DNA from: Methanosphaera stadtmanae DSM 3091
GTDB taxonomy: Archaea > Methanobacteriota > Methanobacteria > Methanobacteriales > Methanobacteriaceae
Direction of reading: 5' to 3'
DNA length: 32,000 nucleotides
Assembly: GCF_000012545.1 (NCBI RefSeq)
Contig: NC_007681.1
Span: 1,230,001 to 1,262,000, forward strand
The position numbers were made by a program, and so were the translations under genes. The first letter of the stretch is position 1. The number at the start of each line of letters is the position of its first letter. Shown one piece after another: positions 7,541 through 32,000 of this stretch. Below the pieces are notes generated by a model. It saw only the letters and a list, made by a program, of their open reading frames with translations. It did not search any database and had not been told where the DNA came from.

Positions 7541-7565
7541 GTAATAACTTTTAACTAATAGGAAG

Positions 7566-9116: not shown

Positions 9117-9124
9117 AAAAATAG

Positions 9125-13201: not shown

Positions 13202-14854
13202 TTACATTATGTCGTATTTTTGAAGTAATAAGAATTCATCTGTGGTTAATTTTTTACCATCTTTGAATTTTTGGAAGATTTCTTCAGCTTCTTCTTTTTC
13301 TTTTAAGTCATTATCAGCTTTATCTTCAGATTTTCTTCCTCTAGATTGAGATTTAGCTTGATCCATGAATTTGTTAACTTTTCTAATTTCAGATAATTTT
13401 GCTTTAACTTCTTCATGTTTTGCTGTTGCTGCATTTCTAGAGTTAATGAAATCTTGGTGTTTACCATCAGCTTCTTCTCTTATACCATCGATTTTGTTGA
13501 AGTATTCTATCATTTCTTCGTGAACTGCTTGTGCTTTATCAGATAATTCTACTACTTTTTGGTGGTATAATTCTGATTTTTCTTTTAGTTGTGTTGCAGT
13601 TTTTTCTTCTTCTTCATCACTTTGGATTTTCTTAAGCTGTTTGGTTAGGTCTGATACTCTTTTTACGAGTTCATTTTCTTTTCTAATATCTAATACTTTT
13701 GTTTGTATTGTTTTATCGATTTTATTGATTTCAGCTTGTATATTTGAAATTTCTTTTTTACCAGAATTCCATTCTACTTTTTTAAGTTCTTCATTACATT
13801 GGTTTCTGAGTTCTTTGTTTTCATGAACTTCTTTGTTGATTTCATCTCTGGTATTTCTTTTATCTAAAGCAATTTTTAAAGTGTCTTTGAGTTTTTGGTT
13901 AAGTTCATCTCTTTCTTTTCTGAATGCTTTAGTTTCTTCATTCATTTTATCTCTTACATTTTTAAGATCTGTAAGCTCAGATTCTAATGTTCTTTTACAT
14001 TGAAGTAATTGTTGGAAGTTGAGTATTGAATAATCAATTGTTTCTTCTTCAGCTTCATCATTTTCTACTACTTCTTCTTCATTTACTTCTTCTGTTTCTT
14101 TTACTTCTTCTTCAGTAGTGATTGTTTCTGGTTCTTGTGTTGTTTCTTCTACTACTTCTTCTTTAGTAATTTTTTCTTCATCTGCCATTATATCAAGTAC
14201 CTTCCTTAGGTCTTTTTCATTAATTTGAACATCAGCGTTTTCTTTTAAAATTGGTTTTGCATTGTATGCTATTCCTATTTTAGCATTTTTTATCATTTCA
14301 AGATCATTTGCCCCATCACCAATAGTAGCACATTCATCTAAAGTTATGCCTATTTCATCAACTAATTGTCTTAGAACATCAACTTTATTCTGTGTTATAA
14401 GAGGCCCAGATACTTCTCCAGTGAGTTTACCATCGTCAACTTCAAGTGTATTATAAAATGCATAATCTGCATTTATTAATTCTTTAACTTTTAAAGCTAT
14501 GACATCAAAACTACCAGTGATTATTGCAATTTTATATCCTTGTTTTTTAAGTTCTGTAGCTGTTTCTACAGCTCCAGGATTTAAGGATATTTTATCCATA
14601 GCTTCATCAATATCAGATGTGCTTATACCTTCTAGTTTTTTTACTCTTTGCCGTATTGATGTTTCAAAAGGAATTTTTCCTTGCATTGCTTGTAGTGTTA
14701 TGTCACTTATTTCTTCTTCAATACCTTTTATTTTTGCTATTTCATCTATTGTTTCTGTGTCTATTAAGACATTATCTAGATCAAATACTACCAATTTAAT
14801 CAAAAGATCACCGATATTTTTAATAAAATAACCAAGAATGATTATGTCGTTCAA
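13202..14854 (-). CDS. serB: Phosphoserine phosphatase-like HAD hydrolase fused to an acidic linker and a roughly 265-aa coiled-coil domain
   Basis: HAD motifs: I VVFDLDNVL, II IAIITGSF, III K...GDGANDLEMIKNA. These are followed by an E/T/V-rich linker (aa ~226-285) and a heptad-rich K/E/Q/N region to the C-terminus (..EEAEEIFQKFKDGKKLTTDEFLLLQKYDIM). The track start is TTG 14854. TTG at 14803, preceded by GGTGAT, would put motif I at the very N-terminus and may be the real start. Confidence 0.85.
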   Translation of the reverse strand: MNDIIILGYFIKNIGDLLIKLVVFDLDNVLIDTETIDEIAKIKGIEEEISDITLQAMQGKIPFETSIRQRVKKLEGISTSDIDEAMDKISLNPGAVETATELKKQGYKIAIITGSFDVIALKVKELINADYAFYNTLEVDDGKLTGEVSGPLITQNKVDVLRQLVDEIGITLDECATIGDGANDLEMIKNAKIGIAYNAKPILKENADVQINEKDLRKVLDIMADEEKITKEEVVEETTQEPETITTEEEVKETEEVNEEEVVENDEAEEETIDYSILNFQQLLQCKRTLESELTDLKNVRDKMNEETKAFRKERDELNQKLKDTLKIALDKRNTRDEINKEVHENKELRNQCNEELKKVEWNSGKKEISNIQAEINKIDKTIQTKVLDIRKENELVKRVSDLTKQLKKIQSDEEEEKTATQLKEKSELYHQKVVELSDKAQAVHEEMIEYFNKIDGIREEADGKHQDFINSRNAATAKHEEVKAKLSEIRKVNKFMDQAKSQSRGRKSEDKADNDLKEKEEAEEIFQKFKDGKKLTTDEFLLLQKYDIM

Positions 14855-16848: not shown

Positions 16849-18021
16849 ATCACCGACAGATTTGTTAGTATATATAATAAAGAAATAGACTATAATTTAC
16901 CTGATAAAATAAATATATATGATACTACACTAAGAGATGGTGAACAAACACCAGGAGTATGTTTTTCACTTGAAGAAAAACTTGAAATAGCACATAAATT
17001 AGATGAACTTGGAATACCACAAATAGAAGCAGGTTTTCCAATAGTTTCAGAAAATGAAAAACAAACAGTAAAAACAATTGCTAATGAAGGACTAGATGCT
17101 CAAATAATCTGTTTAACAAGAACTAAAAAGGAAGACATTGATGCGGCATTAGATGCTGATGTAGATGGAATAATAACATTTATGGGATTATCAGACCTAC
17201 ATCTAGAAGTTAAAATAAACAAACCACGAGATGTAGTAAATCAAATATGTATGGATGCAATAGATTATGGTAAGGATCATGGACTATTTGTAGCATTCTC
17301 TGCTGAAGATGCAACAAGAACAGAACTTCCAAAACTTCTTGATGTATATAAACAAGCACAAGATCATGGAGCAGACAGAATTCATATAGCAGATACAACA
17401 GGTTCAATAAATCCATATGCAACACAGTACTTAGTAAAAAATATTAAAAAAGAAATAGATACAGAAATAGCACTACACTGTCATAATGACTTTGGATTTG
17501 CAGTTGCAAATTCCATTGCAGGATTATTTGAAGGCGCAACTGCAATATCTACAACAGTAAATGGTATAGGTGAAAGAGCAGGAAATGCCTCTCTAGAAGA
17601 ATTAATAATGTCATTAAAACTATTATATAATAAGGATTTAGGATTTAAAACAGAAGTAATCTATGAACTATCACAACTTGTATCAAAATATAGTAAAATT
17701 CCAATATCAGATAGTAAAGCTATAGTTGGAAACAATGTATTTAGACATGAATCAGGAATACATGTAGATGCAATAGTAAAAAATCCATTAGCATATGAAC
17801 CATTCATTCCAGAAATGATTGGAACAAAAAGACAAATAGTTCTAGGAAAACATTCAGGTAAATCAGCAGTAATAGAAAAATTAGACACATTAAATATAAA
17901 AGTAGATGACACACAATTATCACAAATAGTTTCCCTAGTAAAACAAGAACGTGAAAGAGGAGAAGAAATAACAAATAATAAATTCGATGAAATACTAGAA
18001 AAAGTTAATATTAAAAGATGA
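16849..18021 (+). CDS. Short-form 2-oxoacid:acetyl-CoA condensing enzyme, homocitrate synthase AksA-like (isopropylmalate/citramalate synthase family without the C-terminal regulatory domain), with proposed non-canonical ATC start
   Basis: The track ORF (17182..18021) lacks the catalytic N-terminus. The same frame is open back to TAA 16831-16833 and encodes ..DRFVSIYNKEIDYNLPDKINIYDTTLRDGEQTPGV..QIEAGFP.., followed by HCHNDFG and NGIGERAGNASLEE. There is no ATG/GTG/TTG in this frame before 17182. SD GGGGGAG (16837-16843) lies 5 nt before ATC 16849. At 390 aa the protein has no LeuA-type regulatory domain. Confidence 0.8.
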   Translation: MTDRFVSIYNKEIDYNLPDKINIYDTTLRDGEQTPGVCFSLEEKLEIAHKLDELGIPQIEAGFPIVSENEKQTVKTIANEGLDAQIICLTRTKKEDIDAALDADVDGIITFMGLSDLHLEVKINKPRDVVNQICMDAIDYGKDHGLFVAFSAEDATRTELPKLLDVYKQAQDHGADRIHIADTTGSINPYATQYLVKNIKKEIDTEIALHCHNDFGFAVANSIAGLFEGATAISTTVNGIGERAGNASLEELIMSLKLLYNKDLGFKTEVIYELSQLVSKYSKIPISDSKAIVGNNVFRHESGIHVDAIVKNPLAYEPFIPEMIGTKRQIVLGKHSGKSAVIEKLDTLNIKVDDTQLSQIVSLVKQERERGEEITNNKFDEILEKVNIKR

Positions 18022-21549: not shown

Positions 21550-24123
21550 ATGAAAAAGATATATCTAATGATATTTTGTTTAATAACCATTTTATTATCA
21601 GTAACTGCAATATCTGCAACAAATGACACGAAGATACAAACTAATACAGAAAGTACACAAACTCCCCAAATTACAAATGAAAATCCAATCAATAATATGG
21701 AAAATAGTAAAGCAGATAATAATAAATTTAATATTGAATCTGCCACATCACCCACAATAAAAACATCCAATACACAACAATATGAATATACAAATACTAA
21801 AAACTTAAAAACAGAAAGTAATTCAAAAAATGTTATTAATTTAACACCAACTACATTCAATCAAAGTAGTATTAACGATGCAAAAAATAATTCTGATATA
21901 TACTTCTCAAAAGGAAAATATTATCTTAATTCCATGATAATAGATAAGAATATTAGAATTATTGGTGAAAATAAAACTAACACAATACTTATAGCAAATT
22001 CTACATCAAGTATTTTTACAATAAATAAAAACATAAAAATTTCATTAATAAACATAACATTACAAGATTATAATACAGACTCTAACAACACAGCAATAAT
22101 AAACAATGGAATATTAGAAATAGATAATTGTAAATTTCAGAATAATACAGGTTTAAATAAATCATTAAAAGGTGGAAGTATCTATAATACTGGAACATTA
22201 ACTGTTTCTAATTCCGAATTTATGAATAATTATGCTTCATGGGGTGCATCTATCTATAATAACAATGGAACAGTTGTTCTTAATAAATCAGAATTTAGTA
22301 AAGAAAGTACCCTTAATGTTGGTGGAAGTACATATAATATTCATGGAATTATGAATATATATGACTGTTTATATCTTGAAAATAATGGTGTAAGTGGTGC
22401 TGCTATATATAATGCATTTGGACTATTGAATGTTAATAATTCAAAATTCATAAAAAACAATGCTATATCATTTTATGGTGGAGCAATATATAATACAGGA
22501 ATTACTAATGTAAATAATTCCCAATTCTTATATAATCATGCTACTTATGATGGTGGTGCTATAACAAATACTAATAACTTCACAGCAACCAATTGTTCCT
22601 TTGAAGTAAATACTGCTGGTGGAAGTGGAGGATGTATTGAAAATATTGCATGGACAGAAAATGAAAATGGTAATTTAACACTACTTTATTGTAACTTCAC
22701 AGAAAATTCTGCAGGAGTTAATGGTGGGGCTATTGTAAATCTTAATACAACACCAGTAGCTGGAAATTATGGTACTGTTACTGCAAGAAATTGTATTTTT
22801 GAAGCAAATAGTGCTGGTGAAGTTGGTGGAGCAATATGTAACAATCAATATATTAATCTTGAATATAATGTATTTGTAGACAATGATGCTTCAACATCAA
22901 ATACTATTTATTCACTAGAATCTACAATAAAATCAGTGGAAAATAATTGGTGGGCATCTAATAATCCTAAATGGGATAGAATTGGAGTTACTCCTAAAAC
23001 ATGGGTTATTATGACATTTACAAACACCACAACATTACTTGAAAGTCTTGATACTAAACTTATTGTTACATTAAATAGTTTAAATAACAATAAAAAATTA
23101 GAAGGTACACTTCCACTAAGAAGTGTTGTGTATTTATCTGAAAATTCAACTTTCCAGGAAAACTTCCAGGAAATTAATGCTACAACAACAAATAAATGTA
23201 GTCCTGGTATGGGAAATATTAGTGCAAAGATAGATAATCAGAAAATATCACTACAACCAGTATATGCTAACATATCATATATACTAATAAACAATAATCA
23301 GACAATAAAAGTAATTTATAATTTACCCAAAACAATAGATGCTAAAAGTATTCTTAAAATCAATGGAAAGACTGCAACAGAGATTTTTAGAATAACAAAT
23401 GGTAAAAAAGAAGTAATAATGGATATTCCTGGTTATTGGAATAATAAAAATTATATGCTTCGTGTTATTTTAGTAACTAGAACAGGTGAATCACTTATAA
23501 AAGATATTAATTTAACAATACCTAAAAGAGATGTAACTACCAATGTATCAATAATAAGTAATAAAACTATTAAAGTTGGAGATACAATTCAAATAGTTGC
23601 TCATGTCATGACAGGAAATAAAAATGTTACTGGTGGAAAGGTTGTATTTAAAATAAATGGTAAGACTATTAAAACTAATGTAAAAGTTAAAAATGGTGTA
23701 GCTATTATTAATTATACTATTCCCTATTCATTTAATCCTAAAAATTATAATTTAACAGTACAATACTCTGGTAGTGATAATAAAAATGTAGCAAAAACAA
23801 GTATTCCACTAGTTGTTTCTAAACAGGATGTTCATCCAGATGTTGTTAAACCTATGCAATTACTAGGTGGCACAACAATTAGTTCAATTATTGGTCTGTT
23901 AGATACACATAATAACTATGTGTCTAATGGTAAAGTTTGTTATAAAATAAATAATAAAACAATAAAAACCAATATTTCATTAACTGATGGAGTATTTACA
24001 TTTGATTATACAACACCAGAAGTACCACCTGGTAAAAAAATACATGAAACTCTTACAATTATAATGGGTGAAAATAAAAAATATAATGCTATGAGAGTAG
24101 ATATACCTCTTATTATATATTAA
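21550..24123 (+). CDS. Adhesin-like surface protein: signal peptide, Pmp-type (GGAI) right-handed beta-helix repeats, then three Ig-like modules
   Basis: 857 aa. SD GGAGGT upstream. Signal peptide MKKIYLMIFCLITILLSVTAISA. At least 8 GG(A/S)I(Y/T/V)N repeats. The helix ends at ENNWWASNNPKW. The C-terminal modules carry GGKVVFKINGKTIKTNVKVKNGVAIINYTIP. Confidence 0.88.
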   Translation: MKKIYLMIFCLITILLSVTAISATNDTKIQTNTESTQTPQITNENPINNMENSKADNNKFNIESATSPTIKTSNTQQYEYTNTKNLKTESNSKNVINLTPTTFNQSSINDAKNNSDIYFSKGKYYLNSMIIDKNIRIIGENKTNTILIANSTSSIFTINKNIKISLINITLQDYNTDSNNTAIINNGILEIDNCKFQNNTGLNKSLKGGSIYNTGTLTVSNSEFMNNYASWGASIYNNNGTVVLNKSEFSKESTLNVGGSTYNIHGIMNIYDCLYLENNGVSGAAIYNAFGLLNVNNSKFIKNNAISFYGGAIYNTGITNVNNSQFLYNHATYDGGAITNTNNFTATNCSFEVNTAGGSGGCIENIAWTENENGNLTLLYCNFTENSAGVNGGAIVNLNTTPVAGNYGTVTARNCIFEANSAGEVGGAICNNQYINLEYNVFVDNDASTSNTIYSLESTIKSVENNWWASNNPKWDRIGVTPKTWVIMTFTNTTTLLESLDTKLIVTLNSLNNNKKLEGTLPLRSVVYLSENSTFQENFQEINATTTNKCSPGMGNISAKIDNQKISLQPVYANISYILINNNQTIKVIYNLPKTIDAKSILKINGKTATEIFRITNGKKEVIMDIPGYWNNKNYMLRVILVTRTGESLIKDINLTIPKRDVTTNVSIISNKTIKVGDTIQIVAHVMTGNKNVTGGKVVFKINGKTIKTNVKVKNGVAIINYTIPYSFNPKNYNLTVQYSGSDNKNVAKTSIPLVVSKQDVHPDVVKPMQLLGGTTISSIIGLLDTHNNYVSNGKVCYKINNKTIKTNISLTDGVFTFDYTTPEVPPGKKIHETLTIIMGENKKYNAMRVDIPLIIY

Positions 24124-24565: not shown

Positions 24566-27500
24566 CTAGTGTGAAATTTTAGTTTTTGATATGTATGAAG
24601 GTTTTGATAAACCTCTTAGTAGGGTACTCCATTTAGGAGTAGATCCACCCCAATAATTTCCATTAATGCTATTGTGTGAATTGGATGTTGCAGTAATTGC
24701 ATTTCCAATATTTGATGCTTTATTGGATATTAAATTTGTTTTAGTTACTGTTAATTTATTTAAGTTTGCAATAGCTCCTCCACCAACTATTTTACCAGTT
24801 GCTTTATTTGATAAAAAGTCAGAATCTTTAACAGTTACATTTGCAGATATATATAATGCTCCACCAATAGATACATTCTTAGATGTTGCTGTGTTTGAAG
24901 CTAATTCACATTTATCTAGTGTTAAATTACCACTTTCATAGTAGATTGCTCCACCTGATGCTGATGATTGTGTTGCTTCAACATAGTTTTCTGATATTTT
25001 TGTATTTTGAACAGTTGCATATGTATGATATGCTTCTATTGCTCCACCTAATGCTGATTTAGATTTAGCACTATTTGATTTCAATACACTGTTATTTAAT
25101 ATCATAGCAGCATATTGTGAATAGATTGCTCCTGCTCCTGCAAAGAGTGTGTCTGTTGCTTTGTTAGATTGTAATATTGTATTGTTAATATACAAACCAG
25201 TTCCTAAACTACTTATTGCTCCACCAAGTGCATAGTTACTACCACTTACATGGTTGTTAGTAAATGAAGAGGATAATATTACAATATTTCCAAATGAAGA
25301 TTTAATTGCTCCACCAAGAATTGTTTTACCTGTAGCTTTATTTCCATTAAATTTACAGTTTTTAATTACCATTTCTCCATCTTTAAAGTAGATTGCTCCA
25401 CCACCAGTAGAGTTAGATCCTACAGCTTGGTTATTATTAAATTCAACATTATCCATTGAAGTTGTGTTGTTTATTAAACGTACAGCTCCACCTTCTGCAT
25501 TGATGTTTTTTACAGTGTTGTTAATGAATTTTACAGTAGTTAAATTCATGATACCATTTGAATAAATAGCACCAGCAGATAATAATCCAGTAGCTTTATT
25601 GTTTACAAAGTTAACTCCTTTAATAGTTAATTTTCCAATAGACGATATTGCTCCTGCACTATTTTTCTCAATACTGTAACCATTCTTAATTGTTAAGAAT
25701 TTAATTGTAACGTGTGTAATTGATGATGTTAATTTAAATATTGGTTTATATGTATCTCCACCAGTTATGATAGTTTTAGAAATACTTGAACCAACAATTG
25801 TTATTGAATTATTTAATAATATTCCAGATGCTGAATATGTTCCATCTAATAGAGTTACACATCCAAAGGTACTTACATGACCTACAGCATATGCTAATGT
25901 TTTGTATGGATGTGCTTTATCACCTAGGTTGTTATCATTACCTTTTGTACTTACATATACATTTTTTAATGATGATATTGTTAAGTTTTGAACAGTAGAT
26001 GTTGAGTTATAGTATTGGTTAGCAAGTAAAGTTGCTGAGTATTTTAAGCTTAAACCACTGAAATTATTTGGTGGTCTGTAGCTTAAGGAAGCTACTCCTT
26101 TTGTAACATTAGCTCTACCAATGAAAGTACCATTTACTTTATATTCTACAACTCCTTTTTCAACATAGTGATTAGTTTCATCTAAAACATTAACTTTTAA
26201 AACAACACTTTCTCCAACTTTAACATTGTATGGATTACCAACTACTCTTACAGATAATTGACTTACATTAAGAGTATTTAAGTTGTAACTTGAATAATAG
26301 GAATCACTACCTAAATATGTTGCATTTAATCTGTATACACCTTTAGGTATTAATTTTAAAGTATATGTGAAGTTAGCATCACCATTTTTAACTAATGCTT
26401 TACCAACTACTGTGTTATTTACTTTAAATTCCACATATCCACCATTAACTCTTTGTTGGTTTTTATCTCTTACAACTGCAGATAGAACTACAGAACTACC
26501 TGTTTTTGTTTCAGCAGCTCTTGTTGTTGTAATTGTTCCAATTTTATCCACATTTATTCTTCCACCACTAAAACTTGAAGCATATTTCCAGTAACCAGTA
26601 TATAATGCTATAATATCGAATTTTGTAGCAACATTAGTTGTTGGTTTAAAGGAATATAATGCATAACCATTTGATACATTGACTGTTTTTAGAACTTTAC
26701 CATTTAATTTAAATGTTACTTCTCCTTTCCAAACATTGTTGTTATTTTCATCAATAACAGTTGCACTTAATGAAACAGTGTCATTAATTTTAGTATTCAC
26801 AACTGGAACAACTACTTTTGTTTTAAGTTGATGTAAATATAATGTAGCATTTTTCTTTGCTCCATAAACTCTTTTATTTTCTGTACTAAATACATTGATT
26901 ATAAAAGATTTAGAGTTAAGTGTTGATGGTAATGTGTAGTTATATACTGCATAACCTGTAGCATTTGTATAACATCTACCAAATGTTTCACCATTTAATT
27001 TAAATACAACAAGTGAATTGTTAATTGGTCTGTTTAATTCATCAACAGCTTGTGCTTTAAATGATACCTTAGATCCAGCTTTTGACATAACATTACTTGT
27101 ATATATTCTTGAATTTAATTTTGTTATTGTTAAATATGATCTTACTGTAGCATTGGTATATTTTGCATTACCACTATATACAGCAGTTAATCTATATTTT
27201 CCAGGAACAAATGTTTTATTATAGTAAAATGTTGCTACACCATTAACTACTTTTATTTTATCAGAAATTGTGGTTCCTTTTATTTTAAAAACAACATTTC
27301 CTGTTGCATCAGATGCTAATTTTACTTTAATTGGTATTACTTTTAAGTATTTACCAGTAACATTATTTAATTGCATGTTAGGATTTTTACCTGATTCAAT
27401 ATCTAATTCCACTATGGTACTTACAGATTTTTTTAGATATTTTGAATCACCTGAATAAACAAAAGTTAAGTTATATGTTTTTGAATGGAATGATGTTGGA

Positions 27501-28039
27501 ACATGATAGTTATATTTAACCATAGAACCATTGATGTTTATTTTGTTTGAAATTGTTTTACCATTTATTTTAAATACACTATTACCTGTTGCATCTGCAG
27601 GAACAATTGCTACAAATGTTGTGTTAGTTCCAGGACGTAGAGGTTGGTTATTTAATCTGATATTTGGATTGATTTTGGTTGTATTATTCTTTGTAGTAGA
27701 TACTTTAGAATTATCTTCTGTTTCTACCGTGTTATTAGAAGTAGTTGTTGTACTTTTAGATTTTATTGTTTTATCTGTAGATTCTATGTTATTTTCACAT
27801 TTAATGTTGTTGTTTTTAGATGTGTCAGTTTTAACTGATTTACCCTTAGAGGATACTTCTTTTAAATCATCAGTTACTTTTTTAGTTTCAACATTAGATG
27901 ATATTTGATCTTGAATATCATGATTTACACTAACAACTGTTGAATTGTCTGTATTACTTGCAGTTACACTGCTTATTGATATTAACATAAATATTACTAA
28001 TAAAGAAGCTAAAAAAATATGACTTCTTCTAGTACTAAT
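24566..28039 (-). CDS. Giant adhesin-like surface protein: signal peptide, Ser/Thr/Asn-rich spacer, six tandem Ig-like modules, C-terminal Pmp-type beta-helix. Start extended to ATT 28039.
   Basis: The track ORF starts at ATG 27988 (MLISISSVTASN), which leaves only a partial signal peptide. The frame is open upstream to TAA 28069-28067 and adds (I)STRRSHIFLASLLVIF, giving a complete n-region and h-region. SD GGAGGT (28051-28046) lies 6 nt before ATT 28039 and 3 nt before ATC 28042. Six modules of about 95 aa carry (V/E)FK(I/L/V)NG. About 11 GGAI repeats end at NGNYWGGSTPKW. Confidence 0.88.
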   Translation of the reverse strand: MSTRRSHIFLASLLVIFMLISISSVTASNTDNSTVVSVNHDIQDQISSNVETKKVTDDLKEVSSKGKSVKTDTSKNNNIKCENNIESTDKTIKSKSTTTTSNNTVETEDNSKVSTTKNNTTKINPNIRLNNQPLRPGTNTTFVAIVPADATGNSVFKINGKTISNKININGSMVKYNYHVPTSFHSKTYNLTFVYSGDSKYLKKSVSTIVELDIESGKNPNMQLNNVTGKYLKVIPIKVKLASDATGNVVFKIKGTTISDKIKVVNGVATFYYNKTFVPGKYRLTAVYSGNAKYTNATVRSYLTITKLNSRIYTSNVMSKAGSKVSFKAQAVDELNRPINNSLVVFKLNGETFGRCYTNATGYAVYNYTLPSTLNSKSFIINVFSTENKRVYGAKKNATLYLHQLKTKVVVPVVNTKINDTVSLSATVIDENNNNVWKGEVTFKLNGKVLKTVNVSNGYALYSFKPTTNVATKFDIIALYTGYWKYASSFSGGRINVDKIGTITTTRAAETKTGSSVVLSAVVRDKNQQRVNGGYVEFKVNNTVVGKALVKNGDANFTYTLKLIPKGVYRLNATYLGSDSYYSSYNLNTLNVSQLSVRVVGNPYNVKVGESVVLKVNVLDETNHYVEKGVVEYKVNGTFIGRANVTKGVASLSYRPPNNFSGLSLKYSATLLANQYYNSTSTVQNLTISSLKNVYVSTKGNDNNLGDKAHPYKTLAYAVGHVSTFGCVTLLDGTYSASGILLNNSITIVGSSISKTIITGGDTYKPIFKLTSSITHVTIKFLTIKNGYSIEKNSAGAISSIGKLTIKGVNFVNNKATGLLSAGAIYSNGIMNLTTVKFINNTVKNINAEGGAVRLINNTTSMDNVEFNNNQAVGSNSTGGGAIYFKDGEMVIKNCKFNGNKATGKTILGGAIKSSFGNIVILSSSFTNNHVSGSNYALGGAISSLGTGLYINNTILQSNKATDTLFAGAGAIYSQYAAMILNNSVLKSNSAKSKSALGGAIEAYHTYATVQNTKISENYVEATQSSASGGAIYYESGNLTLDKCELASNTATSKNVSIGGALYISANVTVKDSDFLSNKATGKIVGGGAIANLNKLTVTKTNLISNKASNIGNAITATSNSHNSINGNYWGGSTPKWSTLLRGLSKPSYISKTKISH

Positions 28040-28409
28040 GATTTTACCTCCTTTTAAATTAATAATTTAATTGAAGAATTCAATCTATAATAAATTTAAA
28101 TATAAAAAAATTAATCATTCTTCATAATAGTTATTTTAGTCAAGCAAATATATATAATATTTGAAATAAAATCTATTAAATTAGAATAATTTATAATATC
28201 AATGATATAATTAGATAAAATTAGATAGCTAATAGAAAAATTAAGTTATATTTAATTATTTTAAAAAAAATAGAATAGTATTAATAAGAAGTAATTAATA
28301 AATATATCCGTATATAATTTCGAAATAATGTATGAAAAGATTATAATTTACTTGATAAAAATTCATACAATTTTGTTTATATAAATAAAAAAAATAAGGA
28401 GGATATAAC

Positions 28410-29111
28410 ATGTTAGAACAATTTTGGCAATATGGTATATTGGCTGCTGTTTTAATATTTGGTCTCAAAATTGGACTAGCTTTAGGATTTTCAGGTATTG
28501 AAAAGAAAAAAGTTCTTTTAATATTAGTTGGTTATGGCGTAGCTTTAACTATATTTTCATATGTATTAACACCATATACACAACAAGTATATACCTTTGT
28601 ATACCAATACACATCGGGAATTTTCGCTTGTATTGCAATTGTAATTCTTATTACTGGATTTAAAACAATATATGATTGGAAAGTAACTGGAAAAGATGTT
28701 GGTTCAGGTACTTGTATGGCTGTAGTTGCACCATGTCCTTGCTGTTTTGGAGCTATTTTAGCTTCCATCATGTTAGTAGCACCAATAGCTGGAGTTTCAT
28801 CAATAACATTAGGTGTATTCTCTTCAGTAGCATTAGTGCTTGTTATGGGAATAACTTATTTCTTATCTATGCAAATTGTAAAAAGAATGAAACAACCATA
28901 CCCTATAGTTTTAGGTAATTTCATGATATTTATAGGATTATACTTTGTTTTATGTCTTATTATATTACCAAACATGGCTTATATAACAACAGGAACATCA
29001 ATTGAAATACAATCAATAGAAAATGTATCTTTAATGATTGTCAGTGTTTTATGTTTACTTATTGCAGGTGGAATATTTGCTAGAAACAAAAGTTATTTCT
29101 TAGAAAAATAA
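28410..29111 (+). CDS. Polytopic membrane protein with an intramembrane CPCC motif (from memory resembles the archaeal 'predicted transporter' DUF2162 family)
   Basis: 233 aa and almost entirely hydrophobic (about 6-7 TM segments by eye). CPCC at aa 109-112 (nt 28734-28745) lies within VVAPCPCCFGAILASIML. SD GGAGG upstream. First gene of a tightly packed three-gene unit. Confidence 0.6.
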   Translation: MLEQFWQYGILAAVLIFGLKIGLALGFSGIEKKKVLLILVGYGVALTIFSYVLTPYTQQVYTFVYQYTSGIFACIAIVILITGFKTIYDWKVTGKDVGSGTCMAVVAPCPCCFGAILASIMLVAPIAGVSSITLGVFSSVALVLVMGITYFLSMQIVKRMKQPYPIVLGNFMIFIGLYFVLCLIILPNMAYITTGTSIEIQSIENVSLMIVSVLCLLIAGGIFARNKSYFLEK

Positions 29112-29139
29112 AACAAGAGACAAAGTAGGAGGAAAAGAA

Positions 29140-29784
29140 ATGTCAACAGCCATTCCTGGTGGAGAAATGTTATCAGGAGCATTAAATGTTATTGCACAAA
29201 GTTTATTACTTCCAGTAATGATTTTACTTGTAATATTTGTTATATTTGCTATTATAGAATTAGGAGCAATTATTGCAGAATATACTGGGCGTAAGAAAAT
29301 CACTGCAAAGGATAAAAGTATAATAATAAAAAATATTGCTTCTTGTAAAACACAAGATGAAATCTGTCAAGTACTCAATGACAGTAAATTAAAAAAATAT
29401 GATAAAGAAATATTAACATCAATAGCAAAACTTGATAAAGAATTATATGATAAACAAACACGTGAAGTTTTAGCTAGAAATCTTCTTGAAGATCAAGAAT
29501 TTAAAGTTGAAAAATCTCTAGAAAAAGCTGATATTGTAGCAAAAGTAGGATCTGGTTGTGGATTATTAGGTACAATTATTCCAATGGGCCCAGGACTAGC
29601 TGCACTAGGAAATGGAGATATGGTTACCTTAACTTCAAATCTAACAGTTGCTTTTAACACAACAACAGCTGGACTAGCTGCAGGTAGTTTATGTTTTGTA
29701 ATATCAAAAATACGCAGTAGATGGTATGAAGAAGATTTAGCCATGCTATATGATTTATCAGAAACTATTCTTGAGGTGATGTAA
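29140..29784 (+). CDS. MotA/TolQ/ExbB-family proton channel protein
   Basis: 214 aa. One N-terminal TM plus a C-terminal TM pair carrying family motifs GCGLLGTIIPMGPG and AFNTTTAGLAAGSLCFVISKI. SD GGAGG upstream. Its stop overlaps the next start (TAATG). Confidence 0.85.
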   Translation: MSTAIPGGEMLSGALNVIAQSLLLPVMILLVIFVIFAIIELGAIIAEYTGRKKITAKDKSIIIKNIASCKTQDEICQVLNDSKLKKYDKEILTSIAKLDKELYDKQTREVLARNLLEDQEFKVEKSLEKADIVAKVGSGCGLLGTIIPMGPGLAALGNGDMVTLTSNLTVAFNTTTAGLAAGSLCFVISKIRSRWYEEDLAMLYDLSETILEVM

Positions 29785-30125
29785 TGACACTAAAAAGAAG
29801 AAGACTATCTAAAAGGAATCATGATATTGATCCTATGTCTTCTGCAGTTAATATGACTGATGTAATGTTAGTTTTAGCTGTGGGCTTTCTAATATTTGCA
29901 GTTATGGCAACAGGTGCTCAGAATATTATAAATAGTGACATGTCTCCCCAAGAAAAACAGTCAGCAATGCAAGCTGCACAACAAACAACAGAACTTGATG
30001 AAGAAACCACACCATTAGATACCAAACCTGAAGAGATTCAAAGTAGTGGTTCTGGATACCAGGAAAGAGGTAAAGTATACCAAGACCCAAGTACTGGAAA
30101 ACTAGTTCTGGTTAAATCATCATGA
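29784..30125 (+). CDS. ExbD/TolR-like single-pass membrane protein with a short acidic/polar extracytoplasmic tail (possibly the DUF2149 family)
   Basis: 113 aa. Basic N-terminus, then the TM NMTDVMLVLAVGFLIFAVM, which resembles the ExbD/TolR consensus (..DV.lvLLiFF..) and includes Asp26 at the position of the protonatable Asp. It lacks a full ExbD periplasmic domain. It is translationally coupled to the ExbB-like gene. Confidence 0.65.
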   Translation: MTLKRRRLSKRNHDIDPMSSAVNMTDVMLVLAVGFLIFAVMATGAQNIINSDMSPQEKQSAMQAAQQTTELDEETTPLDTKPEEIQSSGSGYQERGKVYQDPSTGKLVLVKSS

Positions 30126-30150
30126 AAAGAAAATACTATTTTTTGGATAT

Positions 30151-30178
30151 GAATAGGACTTTCCTATTCAATATTTTT
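30151..30178 (+). terminator. Hairpin plus T-run downstream of the ExbD-like gene
   Basis: GAATAGGA-CTT-TCCTATTC (30151-30169) is a perfect 8-bp stem. It is followed by AATATTTTTAT containing a T5 run, and lies 26 nt after the stop codon. Confidence 0.35.
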
Positions 30179-30257
30179 ATATTATAAATAGATGATGAAA
30201 TATTAAGTGTATATGTTATTTTTAAGAATAAATTTATTTTATAGAGGATTGATTAAA

Positions 30258-30422
30258 ATGAAAGAGAGTAAATTAAGAACTTCAAAGAAAATTAATAGAA
30301 ATTCTAATTATTTTACTAAAGAAAAACAAATAATAAGTATCATACTAAAATTATTGATAATATTTGTTTTAATTACAATTACAATAAATCTTATTAATTA
30401 TATAAATATTTTACTAAACTAG
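30258..30422 (+). CDS. Possible small (54 aa) basic protein with a C-terminal TM segment
   Basis: The internal ATG 30258 of track ORF 30207..30422 is preceded by AGAGGA about 9 nt upstream. Sequence MKESKLRTSKKINRNSNYFTKEKQIISIILKLLIIFVLITITINLINYINILLN. AT-rich sequence makes chance ORFs likely. Confidence 0.25.
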   Translation: MKESKLRTSKKINRNSNYFTKEKQIISIILKLLIIFVLITITINLINYINILLN

Positions 30423-30947: not shown

Positions 30948-32000
30948 ATGAAGACCATAAATAAATTTCTATTGGCAACAATAGTTTTATTAATGGTTGG
31001 CTTAGGTTGTGCAGCTGCTGCAGATAGTTCAAGTAATTCAACTATAGCAACTGTACATGAAACTTCAAGCCTAAGTGGTGATATCCAAAGTAGTTCAATA
31101 GAACCTACTTTAACAAAGGATATTCAAACAACTAATAAAGATAATATAAAAGAAAAAACTTCAGATAGTAGTACCAAAAGTATTCAAACAAAGGATACGC
31201 AAAAGAAAACTACATCTAACAGTTTTTCAAAAGATGTAACAAATAAAAATACACAAGTATCTAAAAATGTAGAAAAAGATACTAAAATCATAGAAACAAC
31301 GAAAAAAGAATCTAATACACAACCAACAAAAACAGTGAAAAAAGCAACAGTTACAACAATAACTCCCGATGACTATGATTTATATTTCAGATATAATCCT
31401 AAAACTAATAAAACAGAATCTACAACACTTGTATCTGCAGGAGATGTGTTAGATTTACAGGGAACATTTAAAAATGTTAACTTCACAATAGATAAATCTA
31501 AAATAACAATAACAAGTATTGGTAAAACTGCAAAGTTATACAACTGTACAGTAAATGTTTTAGGACTTCAAAGTGCAGGTTCATCTGTACATAACCTAAC
31601 AATTACTAATAACAACTATTATGGTAGTGGAATCTACTTAAATGTTACAAAAAATATTCTTGTAGCTAACAACACCATACATGTATGGGGACCATTTGCA
31701 TTTGCTCTACCATGTGATAGAGTAAATAATAGTTTAGTTATTGATAATTATCTTGAAACATCATGCCGTGAAGATACAAATCGTACACACACAGCAACAC
31801 CATGGGGATTATCCTACTATAACAACATAGTAAACAACACCGTAGTAAGTGACCAAGCAAATGGTATTTACTTCAGTTTATGGGGATCAGGATTATTCCA
31901 AGGAGGATACTGTGATTACAACAATGTAACAGGTAATGATGTTACAGGAGGAGATACTTCCTGGAGTTACACCATACAAATTATGGGTACAGGTAACATC
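30948..32000 (+). CDS. Adhesin-like surface protein, N-terminal 351 aa (continues past the window end)
   Basis: Absent from the ORF track because no stop falls in the window. ATG 30948 is preceded by AAGGTGA. Hand translation is open to 32000: signal peptide MKTINKFLLATIVLLMVGLGCAAAA, a Ser/Thr/Lys-rich spacer, then beta-helix-type repeats (VHNLTITNNNYYGSGIYLNVTKNILVANNTIHV...NNIVNNTVVSDQANGIYF). Confidence 0.8.
   Translation, partial: MKTINKFLLATIVLLMVGLGCAAAADSSSNSTIATVHETSSLSGDIQSSSIEPTLTKDIQTTNKDNIKEKTSDSSTKSIQTKDTQKKTTSNSFSKDVTNKNTQVSKNVEKDTKIIETTKKESNTQPTKTVKKATVTTITPDDYDLYFRYNPKTNKTESTTLVSAGDVLDLQGTFKNVNFTIDKSKITITSIGKTAKLYNCTVNVLGLQSAGSSVHNLTITNNNYYGSGIYLNVTKNILVANNTIHVWGPFAFALPCDRVNNSLVIDNYLETSCREDTNRTHTATPWGLSYYNNIVNNTVVSDQANGIYFSLWGSGLFQGGYCDYNNVTGNDVTGGDTSWSYTIQIMGTGNI

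What the first reader, a model, noticed from the sequence alone, without database searches (positions are those of the whole stretch)
28410..30125. Ton/Tol-type ExbB-ExbD-like proton motor coupled to a CPCC-motif membrane protein in an archaeon
Three tightly packed co-directional genes: 28-nt and -1-nt spacings, the last junction being TAATG, with strong SDs on the first two and a hairpin/T-run after the third. Gene 2 has the MotA/TolQ/ExbB motifs GLLGT...G and (A/N)TTxxGL in its C-terminal TM pair. Gene 3 has an ExbD/TolR-like TM helix with Asp26 where E. coli ExbD D25 and TolR D23 sit, but only a short acidic tail instead of the periplasmic domain. Gene 1 is a polytopic protein with C-P-C-C inside a TM helix. 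CPC/CPx is the intramembrane metal-binding signature of P1B heavy-metal ATPases. In bacteria ExbBD/TolQR/MotAB stators transmit proton-motive force to an outer-membrane, peptidoglycan or rotor partner, and a pseudomurein methanogen has no outer membrane, no TonB and no flagellar rotor. The unit may therefore be a pmf-driven motor with a different output. One inference is thiophilic-metal (Ni/Co/Cu/Zn) uptake or gating of the CPCC protein. Another is mechanical coupling to the wall or S-layer. To my knowledge its function has not been experimentally defined.
Basis: partly seen in the sequence, partly recalled or inferred. Interest (0 to 1): 0.75.

Follow-up and report, generated by a model that had tools for sequence, protein, structure and literature searches.

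The report
Proton-motor genes serving an outside-the-cell chelatase
These three Methanosphaera stadtmanae genes are the archaeal counterpart of the uncharacterised HmuT/U/V membrane proteins of gut Bacteroidota, and their conserved partner is a cell-surface CobN-type metal chelatase or dechelatase, so they probably use the proton gradient to serve that enzyme where no ATP is available.

Summary
Three co-directional genes lie at 28410-30125. They match DUF2162 (E 7e-68), MotA/TolQ/ExbB (above Pfam's threshold) and DUF2149 (E 5e-18).

DUF2149 resembles ExbD/TolR only in one transmembrane helix, which carries an invariant Asp26. The organism is Methanosphaera stadtmanae.

Gene order is kept in 73-77 of 80 Methanobacteriaceae loci and in 6 distant loci. 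In about half of the 80, and in 5 of the 6, a large CobN/Mg-chelatase homologue is directly adjacent. These homologues carry a signal peptide and a C-terminal membrane anchor, so they sit outside the cell.

In M. stadtmanae the CobN-like gene lies about 9 kb downstream, beyond the window, behind two adhesin-like genes.

This is the hmuS-T-U-V arrangement of Bacteroidota. There HmuS is a proven heme dechelatase and HmuT/U/V are undefined.

A bacterial locus that carries both this trio and a separate ExbB-ExbD-TonB set argues against a TonB-type role.

Most likely the trio is a proton-driven membrane module serving an extracytoplasmic class I chelatase or dechelatase. The DUF2162 PCPxC site may be the metal path. 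That mechanism is inferred, not shown.

The parts
28396..28402 (+). Shine-Dalgarno sequence AAGGAGG, 7 nt before the gene 1 start codon
   Evidence: Read directly from the sequence.
28410..29111 (+). Gene 1: a DUF2162 polytopic membrane protein of 233 aa with 7 predicted helices. It occupies the position that HmuT holds in Bacteroidota operons.
   Evidence: Pfam PF09930, E 7.3e-68. It is 100% identical to NCBI 'DUF2162 domain-containing protein [Methanosphaera]'. The AF2 model has pLDDT 87 and pTM 0.78. There is no PDB fold match: best Foldseek E 0.13, TM 0.37 or less. hhalign against 48 Bacteroidota HmuT sequences gives probability 86% and E 5e-6 over 220 collinear columns.
28731..28745 (+). 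Codons for P108-C109-P110-C111-C112, the family PCPxC motif at a helix break in the fourth membrane segment
   Evidence: Column counts in 72 family representatives: P 53, C 45, P 50, C 23, C 53.
29127..29132 (+). Shine-Dalgarno sequence AGGAGG before gene 2
   Evidence: Read directly from the sequence.
29140..29784 (+). Gene 2: a MotA/TolQ/ExbB-family protein of 214 aa. It has three membrane segments with a cytoplasmic domain of about 95 aa between segments 1 and 2. It is the HmuU equivalent.
   Evidence: PF01618 at 36.2 bits against a cut-off of 22.9. A family profile finds TolQ (E 5.6e-4), MotA (0.011) and ExbB (0.088) among solved structures. hhalign against a canonical ExbB gives probability 83% and E 8.9e-6.
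29560..29574 (+). Codons for G141-L-L-G-T145. G141, L142, G144 and T145 are invariant in 46 family members. T145 aligns with the channel Thr of TolQ/ExbB.
29784..30125 (+). Gene 3: a DUF2149 protein of 113 aa, with its start overlapping the gene 2 stop by one base (TAATG). It has a basic N-terminus, one membrane helix and an outside region of about 65 aa. It is the HmuV equivalent.
   Evidence: PF09919 at 65.7 bits against 27.1. ExbD scores only 17.7 against 25.4, and TolR TIGR02801 scores 15.8 against 127. It aligns with Aureibacter HmuV.
29859..29861 (+). Codon for Asp26, invariant in the family. It aligns with the membrane Asp of TolR and ExbD.
   Evidence: Invariant in 38 sequences. The best PDB hits are the TolR and ExbD membrane-helix peptides, with the Asp aligned, but at E 0.4 and 2.9. 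hhalign against a canonical ExbD gives E 0.055.
30054..30116 (+). Conserved C-terminal motif of gene 3 (residues 91-111: GSGYQERGKVYQDPSTGKLVL). It is a candidate contact surface for the partner protein.
   Evidence: G96 and Y99 are invariant and G105 nearly so, from archaea through Firmicutes to Bacteroidota. The contact role is inference.
30150..30180 (+). Hairpin (9 bp, 3 G-C pairs) followed by a T-run, the likely end of the transcription unit
30948..32000 (+). Start of a 1722-aa adhesin-like beta-helix protein that runs off the window. It is the first of two genes inserted between the trio and the CobN-like gene. Given as context, not part of the module.
   Evidence: It has no C-terminal membrane anchor. 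The CobN-like gene would start near window-equivalent position 39160, outside the window.

Best explanation
The three genes encode the membrane sub-complex of an extracytoplasmic class I (CobN/ChlH/HmuS-type) chelatase or dechelatase system. This is the archaeal equivalent of HmuT-HmuU-HmuV.

Gene 2 is an ExbB/TolQ-like protein. Gene 3 is a minimal ExbD/TolR-like protein: one helix carrying the protonatable Asp26, plus a short conserved outside motif. Together they form a proton-conducting, stator-type unit. A 5:2 stoichiometry is assumed by analogy and was not tested.

Its working partner is not an outer-membrane receptor. It is a large CobN-like protein displayed on the outer face of the cytoplasmic membrane. 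That protein has a signal peptide, a C-terminal anchor and a conserved juxtamembrane 'x-E-V/I' motif.

No ATP is available outside the cell. The Pfam-annotated linked loci carry no ChlI/ChlD- or CobS/CobT-type AAA+ genes. So the proton-motive force probably supplies the conformational work or turnover for inserting metal into a tetrapyrrole or extracting it.

Gene 1 (DUF2162, 7 helices, PCPxC at a mid-membrane helix break) is most likely the conduit for the thiophilic metal ion, or for the tetrapyrrole, across the membrane.

Shown: family assignments, gene order, the linkage to CobN-like genes, and the topology of the partners.
Inferred: proton flow, the physical coupling, the direction of the reaction, and the metal (Fe, Co or Ni).
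For: Family assignments.

Co-conservation. The trio keeps the same order and strand in 73-77 of 80 Methanobacteriaceae loci. The exceptions are contig ends.

Linkage to CobN.
- A CobN-Mg_chel protein of 1206-2207 aa lies directly upstream and co-directional in about 40 of those loci.
- The order trio-then-CobN occurs in Desulfotomaculum.
- It occurs in Methanogenium organophilum, inside a cbi/CbiMNQO cobalamin cluster.
- It occurs in ANME-2 with two CobN genes.
- It occurs in two further metagenome loci.
- In M. stadtmanae a 1911-aa protein starts 9 kb downstream on the same strand. Its first 322 residues are 96.6% identical to a 1895-aa Methanosphaera protein annotated CobN, with PF13620 and PF02514.
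- Methanosphaera sp. rholeuAM6 has the order trio, adhesin-like gene, CobN.

Topology of the partners. 125 of 127 linked CobN-like proteins have a C-terminal membrane helix with a basic tail. 115 of 127 have an N-terminal signal. B. thetaiotaomicron HmuS is predicted to have the same topology (PMC12583661).

Juxtamembrane motif. [YHIVMFL]-E-[VIML] lies 15-28 residues before the anchor (73 of 75 within 15-23) in 75 of 77 proteins. A control window gave 0 of 77. The same tail occurs on 8 non-CobN surface proteins in trio loci.

Comparison with Bacteroidota. A complete operon, hmuR-Y-S-T-U-V, shows the same U/V families in the same order.

Against a TonB role. Locus L172 carries the trio with CobN and also a separate canonical ExbB-ExbD-TonB set.

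Literature. HmuS dechelation needs no ATP, and recombinant HmuS stalls after 1-2 turnovers (PMC12583661).

Metal-related neighbours. CbiM with PDGLE, or a P-type ATPase, lies next to the module in several Methanobacterium loci.
Against: - No experiment here or in the literature shows proton flow, complex formation, or any effect of HmuT/U/V on HmuS.
- Gene 3 fails the ExbD/TolR family thresholds.
- In M. stadtmanae the CobN-like gene is not adjacent. It lies outside the window, and a terminator-like hairpin follows gene 3.
- A whole Methanobrevibacter clade of trios (about 14 loci in the tree), further loci in Methanobacterium-type clades, and locus L170 have no nearby CobN. The partner is therefore not always a chelatase.
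- The Cys pair of DUF2162 is present in only about 63-74% of family representatives and is absent from Bacteroidota HmuT.
- The homology of HmuT to DUF2162 is only probable.
- The archaeal CobN-like proteins are equidistant from HmuS, CobN and ChlH: 239, 234 and 231 bits. Substrate and direction are therefore unknown.
Confidence: 0.5

Rival explanations
1. The trio is a self-contained, proton-driven importer. DUF2162 is the permease for a metal ion or a tetrapyrrole such as heme or a corrinoid. The ExbB/ExbD-like pair energises or gates it. The CobN-like protein merely processes or hands over the substrate outside the cell. This matches the current literature guess that HmuTUV transport heme or iron across the inner membrane.
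For: - Pfam describes DUF2162 as a 'predicted transporter'.
- The protein has 7 helices with a PCPxC at a helix break, typical of ion sites in transporters.
- Locus L170 pairs the trio with a Peripla_BP_2 binding protein of the siderophore/heme/B12 type and has no CobN.
- CbiM/PDGLE and cbi genes lie nearby in other loci.
- Literature models take this view (PMC12094164, PMC13227078).
Against: - No known transporter uses an ExbB/ExbD-type unit to drive a permease in the same membrane.
- There is no fold match to any solved transporter.
- Cys is not conserved in Bacteroidota HmuT.
- The conserved juxtamembrane motif on the partner proteins suggests direct mechanical coupling rather than simple hand-over.
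Confidence: 0.25
2. DUF2162 is a transmembrane thiol-disulfide or electron conduit. Its CPxC pair passes reducing equivalents to the outside, to reduce Fe(III)-heme, Co(III)-corrinoid or a similar centre before the metal is removed or inserted by the CobN-like protein.
For: - HmuS needs a reductant, and the physiological periplasmic donor is unknown (PMC12583661, PMC13227078).
- CPxC is a classic redox motif, and here it sits at the N-terminus of a helix.
- Locus L170 has a thioredoxin gene and a DsbD_TM gene next to the trio.
Against: - The Cys pair is missing in a quarter to a third of the family and in Bacteroidota HmuT.
- The motif lies about 10 residues from the cytoplasmic end of its helix, not at the outer surface. 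This placement is inferred from the positive-inside rule.
- No member matches DsbD, CcdA or VKOR models.
- The idea does not explain the ExbB/ExbD-like pair.
Confidence: 0.1
3. One reading: the motor is mechanically coupled to the pseudomurein wall, the S-layer or the flanking adhesin-like proteins, with no link to metal or tetrapyrrole chemistry.
For: - In Methanosphaera the trio is flanked on both sides by adhesin-like beta-helix proteins.
- Some linked CobN-like proteins carry surface-type domains: DUF3344, CARDB and CarboxypepD_reg.
- Trio loci without CobN have other C-terminally anchored surface proteins next to them.
Against: - Having adhesin-like genes as the immediate flanks in place of CobN is confined to Methanosphaera.
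- The Methanosphaera flanking proteins have no membrane anchor and no juxtamembrane motif.
- M. stadtmanae encodes many such proteins. Three more lie elsewhere in this window.
- The cross-domain conserved neighbour is CobN.
Confidence: 0.07
4. The pair acts as an ordinary ExbB-ExbD that energises a TonB-dependent outer-membrane receptor, as drawn for HmuU/HmuV in the Bacteroides literature.
For: - In Bacteroidota the genes sit in one operon with the TonB-dependent receptor HmuR (PMC12583661).
- Locus L172 has a TonB-dependent receptor directly upstream.
Against: - The module is conserved in organisms taken to have a single membrane: Methanobacteriaceae, Methanogenium, ANME-2 and Desulfotomaculum. 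None of their loci shows a receptor or TonB.
- DUF2149 lacks the ExbD periplasmic domain that contacts TonB.
- L172 carries its own separate ExbB-ExbD-TonB set next to the module.
Confidence: 0.03

Closest known systems
HmuS-HmuT-HmuU-HmuV part of the hmuYRSTUV operon of Bacteroidota (Porphyromonas gingivalis, Bacteroides thetaiotaomicron)
   Same: [quoted passage not shown] The gene order T-U-V and the tight packing are the same.
- The partner is a CobN-like protein anchored by terminal helices and facing outward.
- HmuT has the same size and position as DUF2162 and is probably a distant homologue: hhalign 86%, E 5e-6.
   Different: - There is no HmuY hemophore and no HmuR receptor, because there is no outer membrane.
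- Gene 1 is a recognisable DUF2162 with PCPxC. Bacteroidota HmuT matches no Pfam family and lacks the Cys pair.
- In M. stadtmanae the CobN-like gene is 9 kb away, behind two adhesin-like genes.
- The archaeal CobN-like proteins are no closer to HmuS than to CobN or ChlH, so heme may not be the substrate.
ExbB-ExbD and TolQ-TolR proton-driven stator units of Gram-negative bacteria
   Same: - Gene 2 belongs to the family. It has three membrane segments, a long cytoplasmic loop, and the conserved G-T in segment 2 and T in segment 3.
- Gene 3 follows with translational coupling. It has one helix with an Asp at the position of ExbD D25 and TolR D23.
   Different: - Gene 3 has no ExbD/TolR periplasmic domain and fails the family thresholds.
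- No TonB or TolA was seen in the window or the linked loci, and there is no outer membrane.
- A third polytopic protein, DUF2162, is always present.
- The inferred output is an enzyme on the same membrane.
Class I chelatases CobNST and ChlHID (ATP-driven cobalt and magnesium chelatases)
   Same: The partner protein belongs to the same CobN/ChlH superfamily, with phmmer E-values from 1e-65 to 1e-147 against solved CobN and ChlH.
   Different: - Canonical enzymes are cytoplasmic and driven by AAA+ partners (CobS/T or ChlI/D).
- Here the large subunit is outside the cell.
- No AAA+ partner gene is seen in the Pfam-annotated loci.
- An ExbB/ExbD-like module stands in that genomic position.
cobN-exbB-exbD-tonB cluster of Geobacter lovleyi plasmid pSZ77
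   Same: It is a CobN homologue without CobS/T, clustered with ExbB/ExbD-type genes near cobalamin genes. Its role is unknown (PMC3403914).
   Different: That cluster is described with ExbB, ExbD and TonB matches plus TonB-dependent receptors, in a two-membrane bacterium. I did not examine its sequences.
CPC/CPx intramembrane metal site of P1B heavy-metal ATPases
   Same: It is a Cys-Pro-Cys type motif at a proline-induced helix break inside the membrane.
   Different: There is no ATPase domain and no sequence or fold relationship. This is a motif analogy only.

Membership tests
MotA/TolQ/ExbB (PF01618), gene 2 | Profile match above the curated threshold | tested here: met
   36.2 bits against a cut-off of 22.9, E 6e-9. 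The family profile hits solved TolQ, MotA and ExbB. hhalign against a canonical ExbB gives probability 83%.
MotA/TolQ/ExbB (PF01618), gene 2 | ExbB/TolQ architecture: membrane segment 1, a long cytoplasmic domain, then a hairpin of segments 2 and 3 with a conserved Thr in each | tested here: met
   Hydropathy gives segments at 21-39 and 170-188, with a weaker one at 137-158. G141, L142, G144 and T145 are invariant, and T175 aligns with the segment-3 Thr of TolQ. The equivalence to ExbB T148/T181 is from my own knowledge.
MotA/TolQ/ExbB (PF01618), gene 2 | Pentamer enclosing a dimer of the partner helix, with proton conduction | not testable with these tools
   Only single chains can be modelled. 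A single-sequence AF2 model of gene 2 was unusable, with pLDDT 46.
ExbD/TolR (PF02472, TIGR02801), gene 3 | Profile match above the curated threshold | tested here: not met
   ExbD 17.7 bits against 25.4. TolR 15.8 against 127.3. hhalign against a canonical ExbD gives E 0.055 and probability 1%.
ExbD/TolR (PF02472, TIGR02801), gene 3 | Single N-terminal membrane helix with an essential Asp near its cytoplasmic end | tested here: met
   D26 is invariant in 38 sequences. It aligns with the Asp of the TolR and ExbD membrane peptides.
ExbD/TolR (PF02472, TIGR02801), gene 3 | Folded periplasmic domain of about 80-90 residues | tested here: not met
   Only about 65 outside residues are present, and the match to the ExbD profile stops at profile position 57 of 128. 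A different conserved C-terminal motif takes its place.
DUF2149 (PF09919), gene 3 | Profile match above the curated threshold | tested here: met
   65.7 bits against 27.1.
DUF2162 (PF09930), gene 1 | Profile match above the curated threshold | tested here: met
   228.8 bits against 34.4 over the full length. All 72 aligned relatives match the family.
HmuSTUV-type module (Bacteroidota hmu operon) | HmuU (MotA/ExbB family) followed by HmuV (DUF2149) | tested here: met
   The Aureibacter hmu operon gives HmuU PF01618 at E 1.2e-11 and HmuV PF09919 at E 8.9e-35. Gene 3 aligns with HmuV and shares its invariant residues.
HmuSTUV-type module (Bacteroidota hmu operon) | HmuT-type polytopic protein directly upstream of HmuU | tested here: inconclusive
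   The position and size are the same, 225-250 aa. Profile-profile comparison gives probability 86% and E 5e-6 over 220 columns. A single-sequence comparison gives nothing. HmuT has no Pfam match, and PCPxC is not conserved in it.
HmuSTUV-type module (Bacteroidota hmu operon) | Linked CobN-like protein (HmuS) with terminal membrane helices and an outward-facing body | tested here: met
   It is linked but not adjacent in M. stadtmanae: 9 kb downstream on the same strand. It is adjacent in about 40 of 80 relatives and in 5 of 6 distant loci.
HmuSTUV-type module (Bacteroidota hmu operon) | HmuY hemophore and HmuR TonB-dependent receptor in the operon | tested here: not met
   Neither is present in the window or within 10 kb on either side in M. 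stadtmanae. Neither is present in the archaeal or Desulfotomaculum loci.
P1B-type heavy-metal ATPase | E1-E2 ATPase and HAD domains around a CPC-bearing helix | tested here: not met
   Gene 1 is 233 aa of membrane helices only. It has no ATPase match and no fold match.

The most novel reading that the evidence does not exclude
ExbB/ExbD-type proton motors have a second, ancient output besides TonB, TolA and flagellar rotors. Together with DUF2162/HmuT they directly power or gate extracytoplasmic enzymes tethered to the same membrane. The main example is CobN/HmuS-type chelatases or dechelatases, where the motor replaces the AAA+ ATPase of the cytoplasmic enzymes. The partners are recognised through a conserved juxtamembrane 'x-E-V/I' handle placed about 17 residues before their C-terminal anchor. 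This handle would be the functional analogue of a TonB box. The system would be shared by archaea, Firmicutes and Bacteroidota.
Probability: 0.3. Interest if true: 0.85.

Novelty: new variant of a known kind. Interest (0 to 1): 0.66.

Why it matters
HmuS was shown only in 2025 to be the enzyme by which abundant gut anaerobes strip iron from heme. What HmuT/U/V do is an acknowledged gap, and so is why recombinant HmuS stalls after 1-2 turnovers.

The same U/V pair, with a T-like partner, accompanies outward-facing CobN-like proteins in archaea and in a Firmicute taken to have a single membrane. That removes the TonB or outer-membrane explanation. It points to a proton-driven partner of the enzyme itself.

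This gives a concrete answer to test for a second puzzle: how a chelatase superfamily that normally needs ATP can work outside the cell.

It also gives the many unexplained CobN paralogues of methanogens a context. They may scavenge Fe, Co or Ni from environmental tetrapyrroles, which matters for organisms whose metabolism depends on corrinoids and F430.

For M. stadtmanae, a human gut archaeon, it suggests competition with Bacteroides for heme or corrinoid metals.

Tried and rejected
- Locus scan with broad DUF2162 alignments (72 and 22 sequences): no stretch was conserved enough. A 6-sequence alignment worked, but it restricted the survey to Methanobacteriaceae.
- Protein search with Aureibacter HmuT: it found only itself. 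HmuT sequences were instead taken from 80 metagenome loci found through HmuV.
The single-sequence model was unusable, with pLDDT 46.
It was identified through its first 322 residues instead.
- Riboswitches or other RNA families around the cluster: none.
- Upstream-region alignment across Methanosphaera: it shows only an AT-rich promoter-like block and no recognisable metal-regulator site.
- Anti-phage defence relation (Zorya-type MotAB): no PADLOC match.
- Relation of DUF2162 to LysE, DsbD, NicO or other transporter families: no consistent secondary Pfam hits.
- Sigma-70 promoter scan: uninformative, 27 sites found against 27 expected, and the wrong promoter type for an archaeon.


Full report
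**What is in the window**

The finding's coordinates are exact. Three + strand ORFs lie at 28410-29111 (233 aa), 29140-29784 (214 aa) and 29784-30125 (113 aa). They are separated by 28 nt and by a one-base overlap (TAATG). Shine-Dalgarno sequences are at 28396-28402 and 29127-29132. A hairpin with a T-run lies at 30150-30180.

Pfam assigns gene 1 to DUF2162 (E 7e-68). It assigns gene 2 to MotA_ExbB (36.2 bits, cut-off 22.9) and gene 3 to DUF2149 (65.7 bits, cut-off 27.1). ExbD scores only 17.7 bits against a cut-off of 25.4, and NCBIfam TolR scores 15.8 against 127.

The window has 26.7% G+C. Gene 1 is 100% identical to a Methanosphaera protein found on a 1.77-Mb contig, so the organism is Methanosphaera stadtmanae.

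**The three proteins**

*Gene 2.* It has the ExbB/TolQ layout: one membrane segment, a cytoplasmic stretch of about 95 residues, then a helical hairpin. In an alignment of 46 family members from archaea, Firmicutes and Bacteroidota, G141, L142, G144, T145, P148, G150, P151, A171, F172 and G178 are invariant. The family profile finds solved TolQ (E 5.6e-4), MotA (0.011) and ExbB (0.088). It also matches a canonical ExbB at 83% probability.

*Gene 3.* It has a basic N-terminus, one membrane helix and about 65 outside residues. Across 38 sequences P17, N23, D26, V30, G96 and Y99 are invariant. Its best solved-structure hits are the TolR and ExbD membrane-helix peptides with the Asp aligned. The statistics are weak: E 0.4 and 2.9, and E 0.055 against a canonical ExbD. 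It therefore works like a minimal ExbD/TolR, but it is not a member of that family by the family's own thresholds. Its tail is not merely acidic, because it ends in a conserved G-x-G-Y...V-Y-x-D-x-x-T-G-K-L-I-x-V motif.

*Gene 1.* The AF2 model is confident (pLDDT 87, pTM 0.78) and shows seven helices with a break at A107-P108 just before Cys109. No solved structure resembles it. The family is small: 118 clusters at 50% identity among 1.84 billion proteins. Its conserved motif is P-C-P-x-C, with the two outer Cys present in 63-74% of representatives and the middle Cys in 32%.

**The conserved partner**

A scan of one genome per species returned 80 Methanobacteriaceae loci. The trio occurs in the same order and strand in 73-77 of them, and the rest are cut by contig ends.

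Clustering of the neighbouring genes showed one dominant neighbour family. It contains two kinds of protein. One kind is a set of CobN/Mg-chelatase homologues of 1206-2207 aa, lying directly upstream and co-directional in about 40 loci (all Methanobacterium-type and many Methanobrevibacter). The other kind is the adhesin-like beta-helix proteins that flank the Methanosphaera trios.

Look-ups of six distant DUF2162 members gave:
- DUF2162-MotA_ExbB-DUF2149-CobN in Desulfotomaculum.
- The same four genes in Methanogenium organophilum, embedded among cbi genes and next to CbiMNQO.
- The trio followed by two CobN genes in ANME-2.
- Trio followed by CobN in another metagenome contig.
- A two-membrane bacterium with a TonB-dependent receptor, the trio, CobN, and then a separate canonical ExbB-ExbD-TonB set.
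- One locus with a Peripla_BP_2 binding protein, a thioredoxin and a DsbD-type protein instead of CobN.

**The situation in M. stadtmanae**

Ten kilobases around the trio show this order: a 54-aa ORF, a 1722-aa adhesin-like protein (starting at window 30948), an 853-aa protein, then a 1911-aa protein, all on the same strand.

The first 322 residues of the 1911-aa protein are 96.6% identical to a 1895-aa Methanosphaera protein. NCBI names that protein cobaltochelatase subunit CobN, and it carries PF13620 and PF02514.

The partner is therefore present about 9 kb downstream, outside the window, behind an insertion of adhesin-like genes. Another Methanosphaera species has the order trio, adhesin-like gene, CobN.

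In a tree of the concatenated trio, Methanosphaera forms its own clade next to a locus with CobN 3 kb upstream. A separate Methanobrevibacter clade lacks adjacent CobN.

**Where the partners sit**

Of 127 CobN-like proteins from trio-linked loci, 125 end in a hydrophobic helix followed by basic residues. 115 begin with a signal-like segment. The body is therefore outside the cell, tethered by its C-terminus. B. thetaiotaomicron HmuS is predicted to have this topology (PMC12583661).

I also noticed a conserved tripeptide, [YHIVMFL]-E-[VIML] (AYEVS, AHEIS, SIEINP, VYEVVKK). It lies 15-28 residues before the anchor, most often 17 and within 15-23 in 73 of 75 proteins. It occurs in 75 of 77 archaeal, Firmicute and other proteins. 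A control window further upstream gave 0 of 77.

The same tail appears on eight non-CobN surface proteins encoded in trio loci. A similar one (AQELF) appears on the large surface protein directly upstream of the trio in the CobN-less locus. The Methanosphaera adhesin-like neighbours have neither the anchor nor the motif.

**Comparison with what is known**

The literature search for DUF2149 led to the hmuYRSTUV operon of Bacteroidota. There HmuS is CobN-like, HmuT is hypothetical, HmuU is MotA/TolQ/ExbB and HmuV is DUF2149 (PMC11681262, PMC10434189).

HmuS is now a demonstrated heme dechelatase. It is membrane-bound, independent of ATP, dependent on a reductant, and limited to 1-2 turnovers in vitro (PMC12583661). 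The roles of HmuT/U/V are stated to be unclear. They are drawn either as the motor for the HmuR receptor or as an inner-membrane transporter (PMC12583661, PMC12094164, PMC13227078). The same paper remarks that archaea have many HmuS/CobN homologues of unknown use and lack complete hmu operons.

A complete operon on an Aureibacter plasmid let me compare directly. HmuV aligns with gene 3 and keeps the invariant residues. HmuT has no Pfam match and no pairwise similarity to DUF2162. However, a profile of 48 HmuT sequences, taken from gut-metagenome loci found through HmuV, aligns with the DUF2162 profile over 220 collinear columns at 86% probability. This suggests distant homology but does not prove it. 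The Cys motif is not kept in HmuT.

The archaeal CobN-like proteins are equally distant from solved HmuS, CobN and ChlH.

**Most likely mechanism**

The conserved unit is the trio plus an outward-facing, C-terminally tethered protein, usually a class I chelatase homologue. It occurs in organisms taken to have a single membrane. In one bacterium it sits beside a complete ExbB-ExbD-TonB set. A TonB-type role is therefore excluded for the archaeon and unlikely in general.

Cytoplasmic CobN and ChlH depend on AAA+ ATPase partners. None is encoded in the Pfam-annotated linked loci, and ATP is not available outside the cell.

I therefore propose that the ExbB-like and DUF2149 proteins form a proton-driven unit. 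It would do conformational work on the tethered enzyme, perhaps through the DUF2149 C-terminal motif and the partner's juxtamembrane handle. DUF2162 would provide the path for the metal through its PCPxC site.

Neighbouring CbiM/PDGLE genes, a P-type ATPase and cbi genes point to cobalt or nickel as much as to iron.

Every step beyond family membership, linkage and topology is inference. I put about 0.5 on this reading, 0.25 on a self-contained importer, and less on the redox-conduit and wall-coupling alternatives.

**Verdict**

The locus is a new variant of a known but uncharacterised kind. Its value lies in what the archaeal and single-membrane versions say about HmuT/U/V and about how extracytoplasmic chelatases are energised.

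Noticed in passing
Outside the window: CobN-like proteins of loci L016-L085 and P0267-P0293, for example P0281 residues about 1845-1895: A conserved juxtamembrane tripeptide [YHIVMFL]-E-[VIML] lies 15-28 residues (mode 17; 73 of 75 within 15-23) before the C-terminal membrane anchor. It occurs in 75 of 77 trio-linked CobN-like proteins and in 0 of 77 control windows. The same tail is found on 8 non-CobN surface proteins in trio loci. It may be a docking handle for the motor, or a sorting signal.
   Followed up: partly
Loci L037, L045, L058, L062, L069, L075, L078-L080 (Methanobrevibacter): A second clade of trios has no adjacent CobN. Its neighbours are a PaaK-like ligase, an ACT-domain protein, a TFS-like zinc-ribbon protein and small membrane proteins of about 141 aa. 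There are also secreted, C-terminally anchored proteins of 600-900 aa with no Pfam match, one of them with a His-rich stretch (KYHKYHPHHHNHGYK).
   Followed up: partly
L172:5824-16646: A bacterial metagenome locus has a TonB-dependent receptor, a 450-aa DUF2162 with an N-terminal extension, MotA_ExbB, DUF2149 and CobN. These are followed by a separate canonical ExbB-ExbD-TonB set, so two motor sets sit side by side.
   Followed up: partly
L170:2086-12260: This trio is preceded by a 1887-aa PKD/PQQ-repeat surface protein with a C-terminal anchor. It is followed by a Peripla_BP_2 binding protein, a thioredoxin and a DsbD-type membrane protein. There is no CobN.
   Followed up: no
window 30258-30422 (+): A 54-aa ORF encodes a small hydrophobic protein just after the terminator-like hairpin. 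It is called as a gene in metagenome assemblies. Among the Methanosphaera-type loci searched (L001-L015, L030, L087) it was found only in the M. stadtmanae locus L087.
   Followed up: partly
window 16880-18021 (+): A homocitrate/isopropylmalate-synthase-like gene (HMGL-like plus HCS_D2). Its conserved N-terminal region, including the RDGEQ motif, is in frame but lies upstream of the first ATG/GTG/TTG at 17182. No canonical start codon precedes it after the previous stop. This could be a non-canonical start or a sequence quirk.
   Followed up: no
window 6398-13007 (+): A NurA - HerA - Mre11-like phosphoesterase - Rad50-like ATPase operon (archaeal DNA end-resection genes), confirmed by Pfam.
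   Followed up: yes
window 3117-5324 (+), 21550-24123 (+), 24566-27988 (-), 30948-32000 (+): Four large Asn/Thr-rich adhesin-like proteins with signal peptides; Pfam records (L087) show Ig-like Big_3_5 repeats in three of them and beta-helix (Beta_helix, NosD) matches in the one at 30948. Two of them flank the trio. Those checked have no C-terminal membrane anchor.
   Followed up: partly
window 13202-14854 (-): A 550-aa fusion of a HAD-type phosphatase domain with a long charged coiled-coil region (DUF7121).
   Followed up: no
window 28280-28330 and the equivalent regions of L003-L013: A conserved AT-rich block (AATATTAATAA...TAATAAA...TATATAA) lies about 90-130 nt upstream of the gene 1 start across Methanosphaera species. 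It is probably the promoter, which would imply a 5' leader of some tens of nucleotides.
   Followed up: partly
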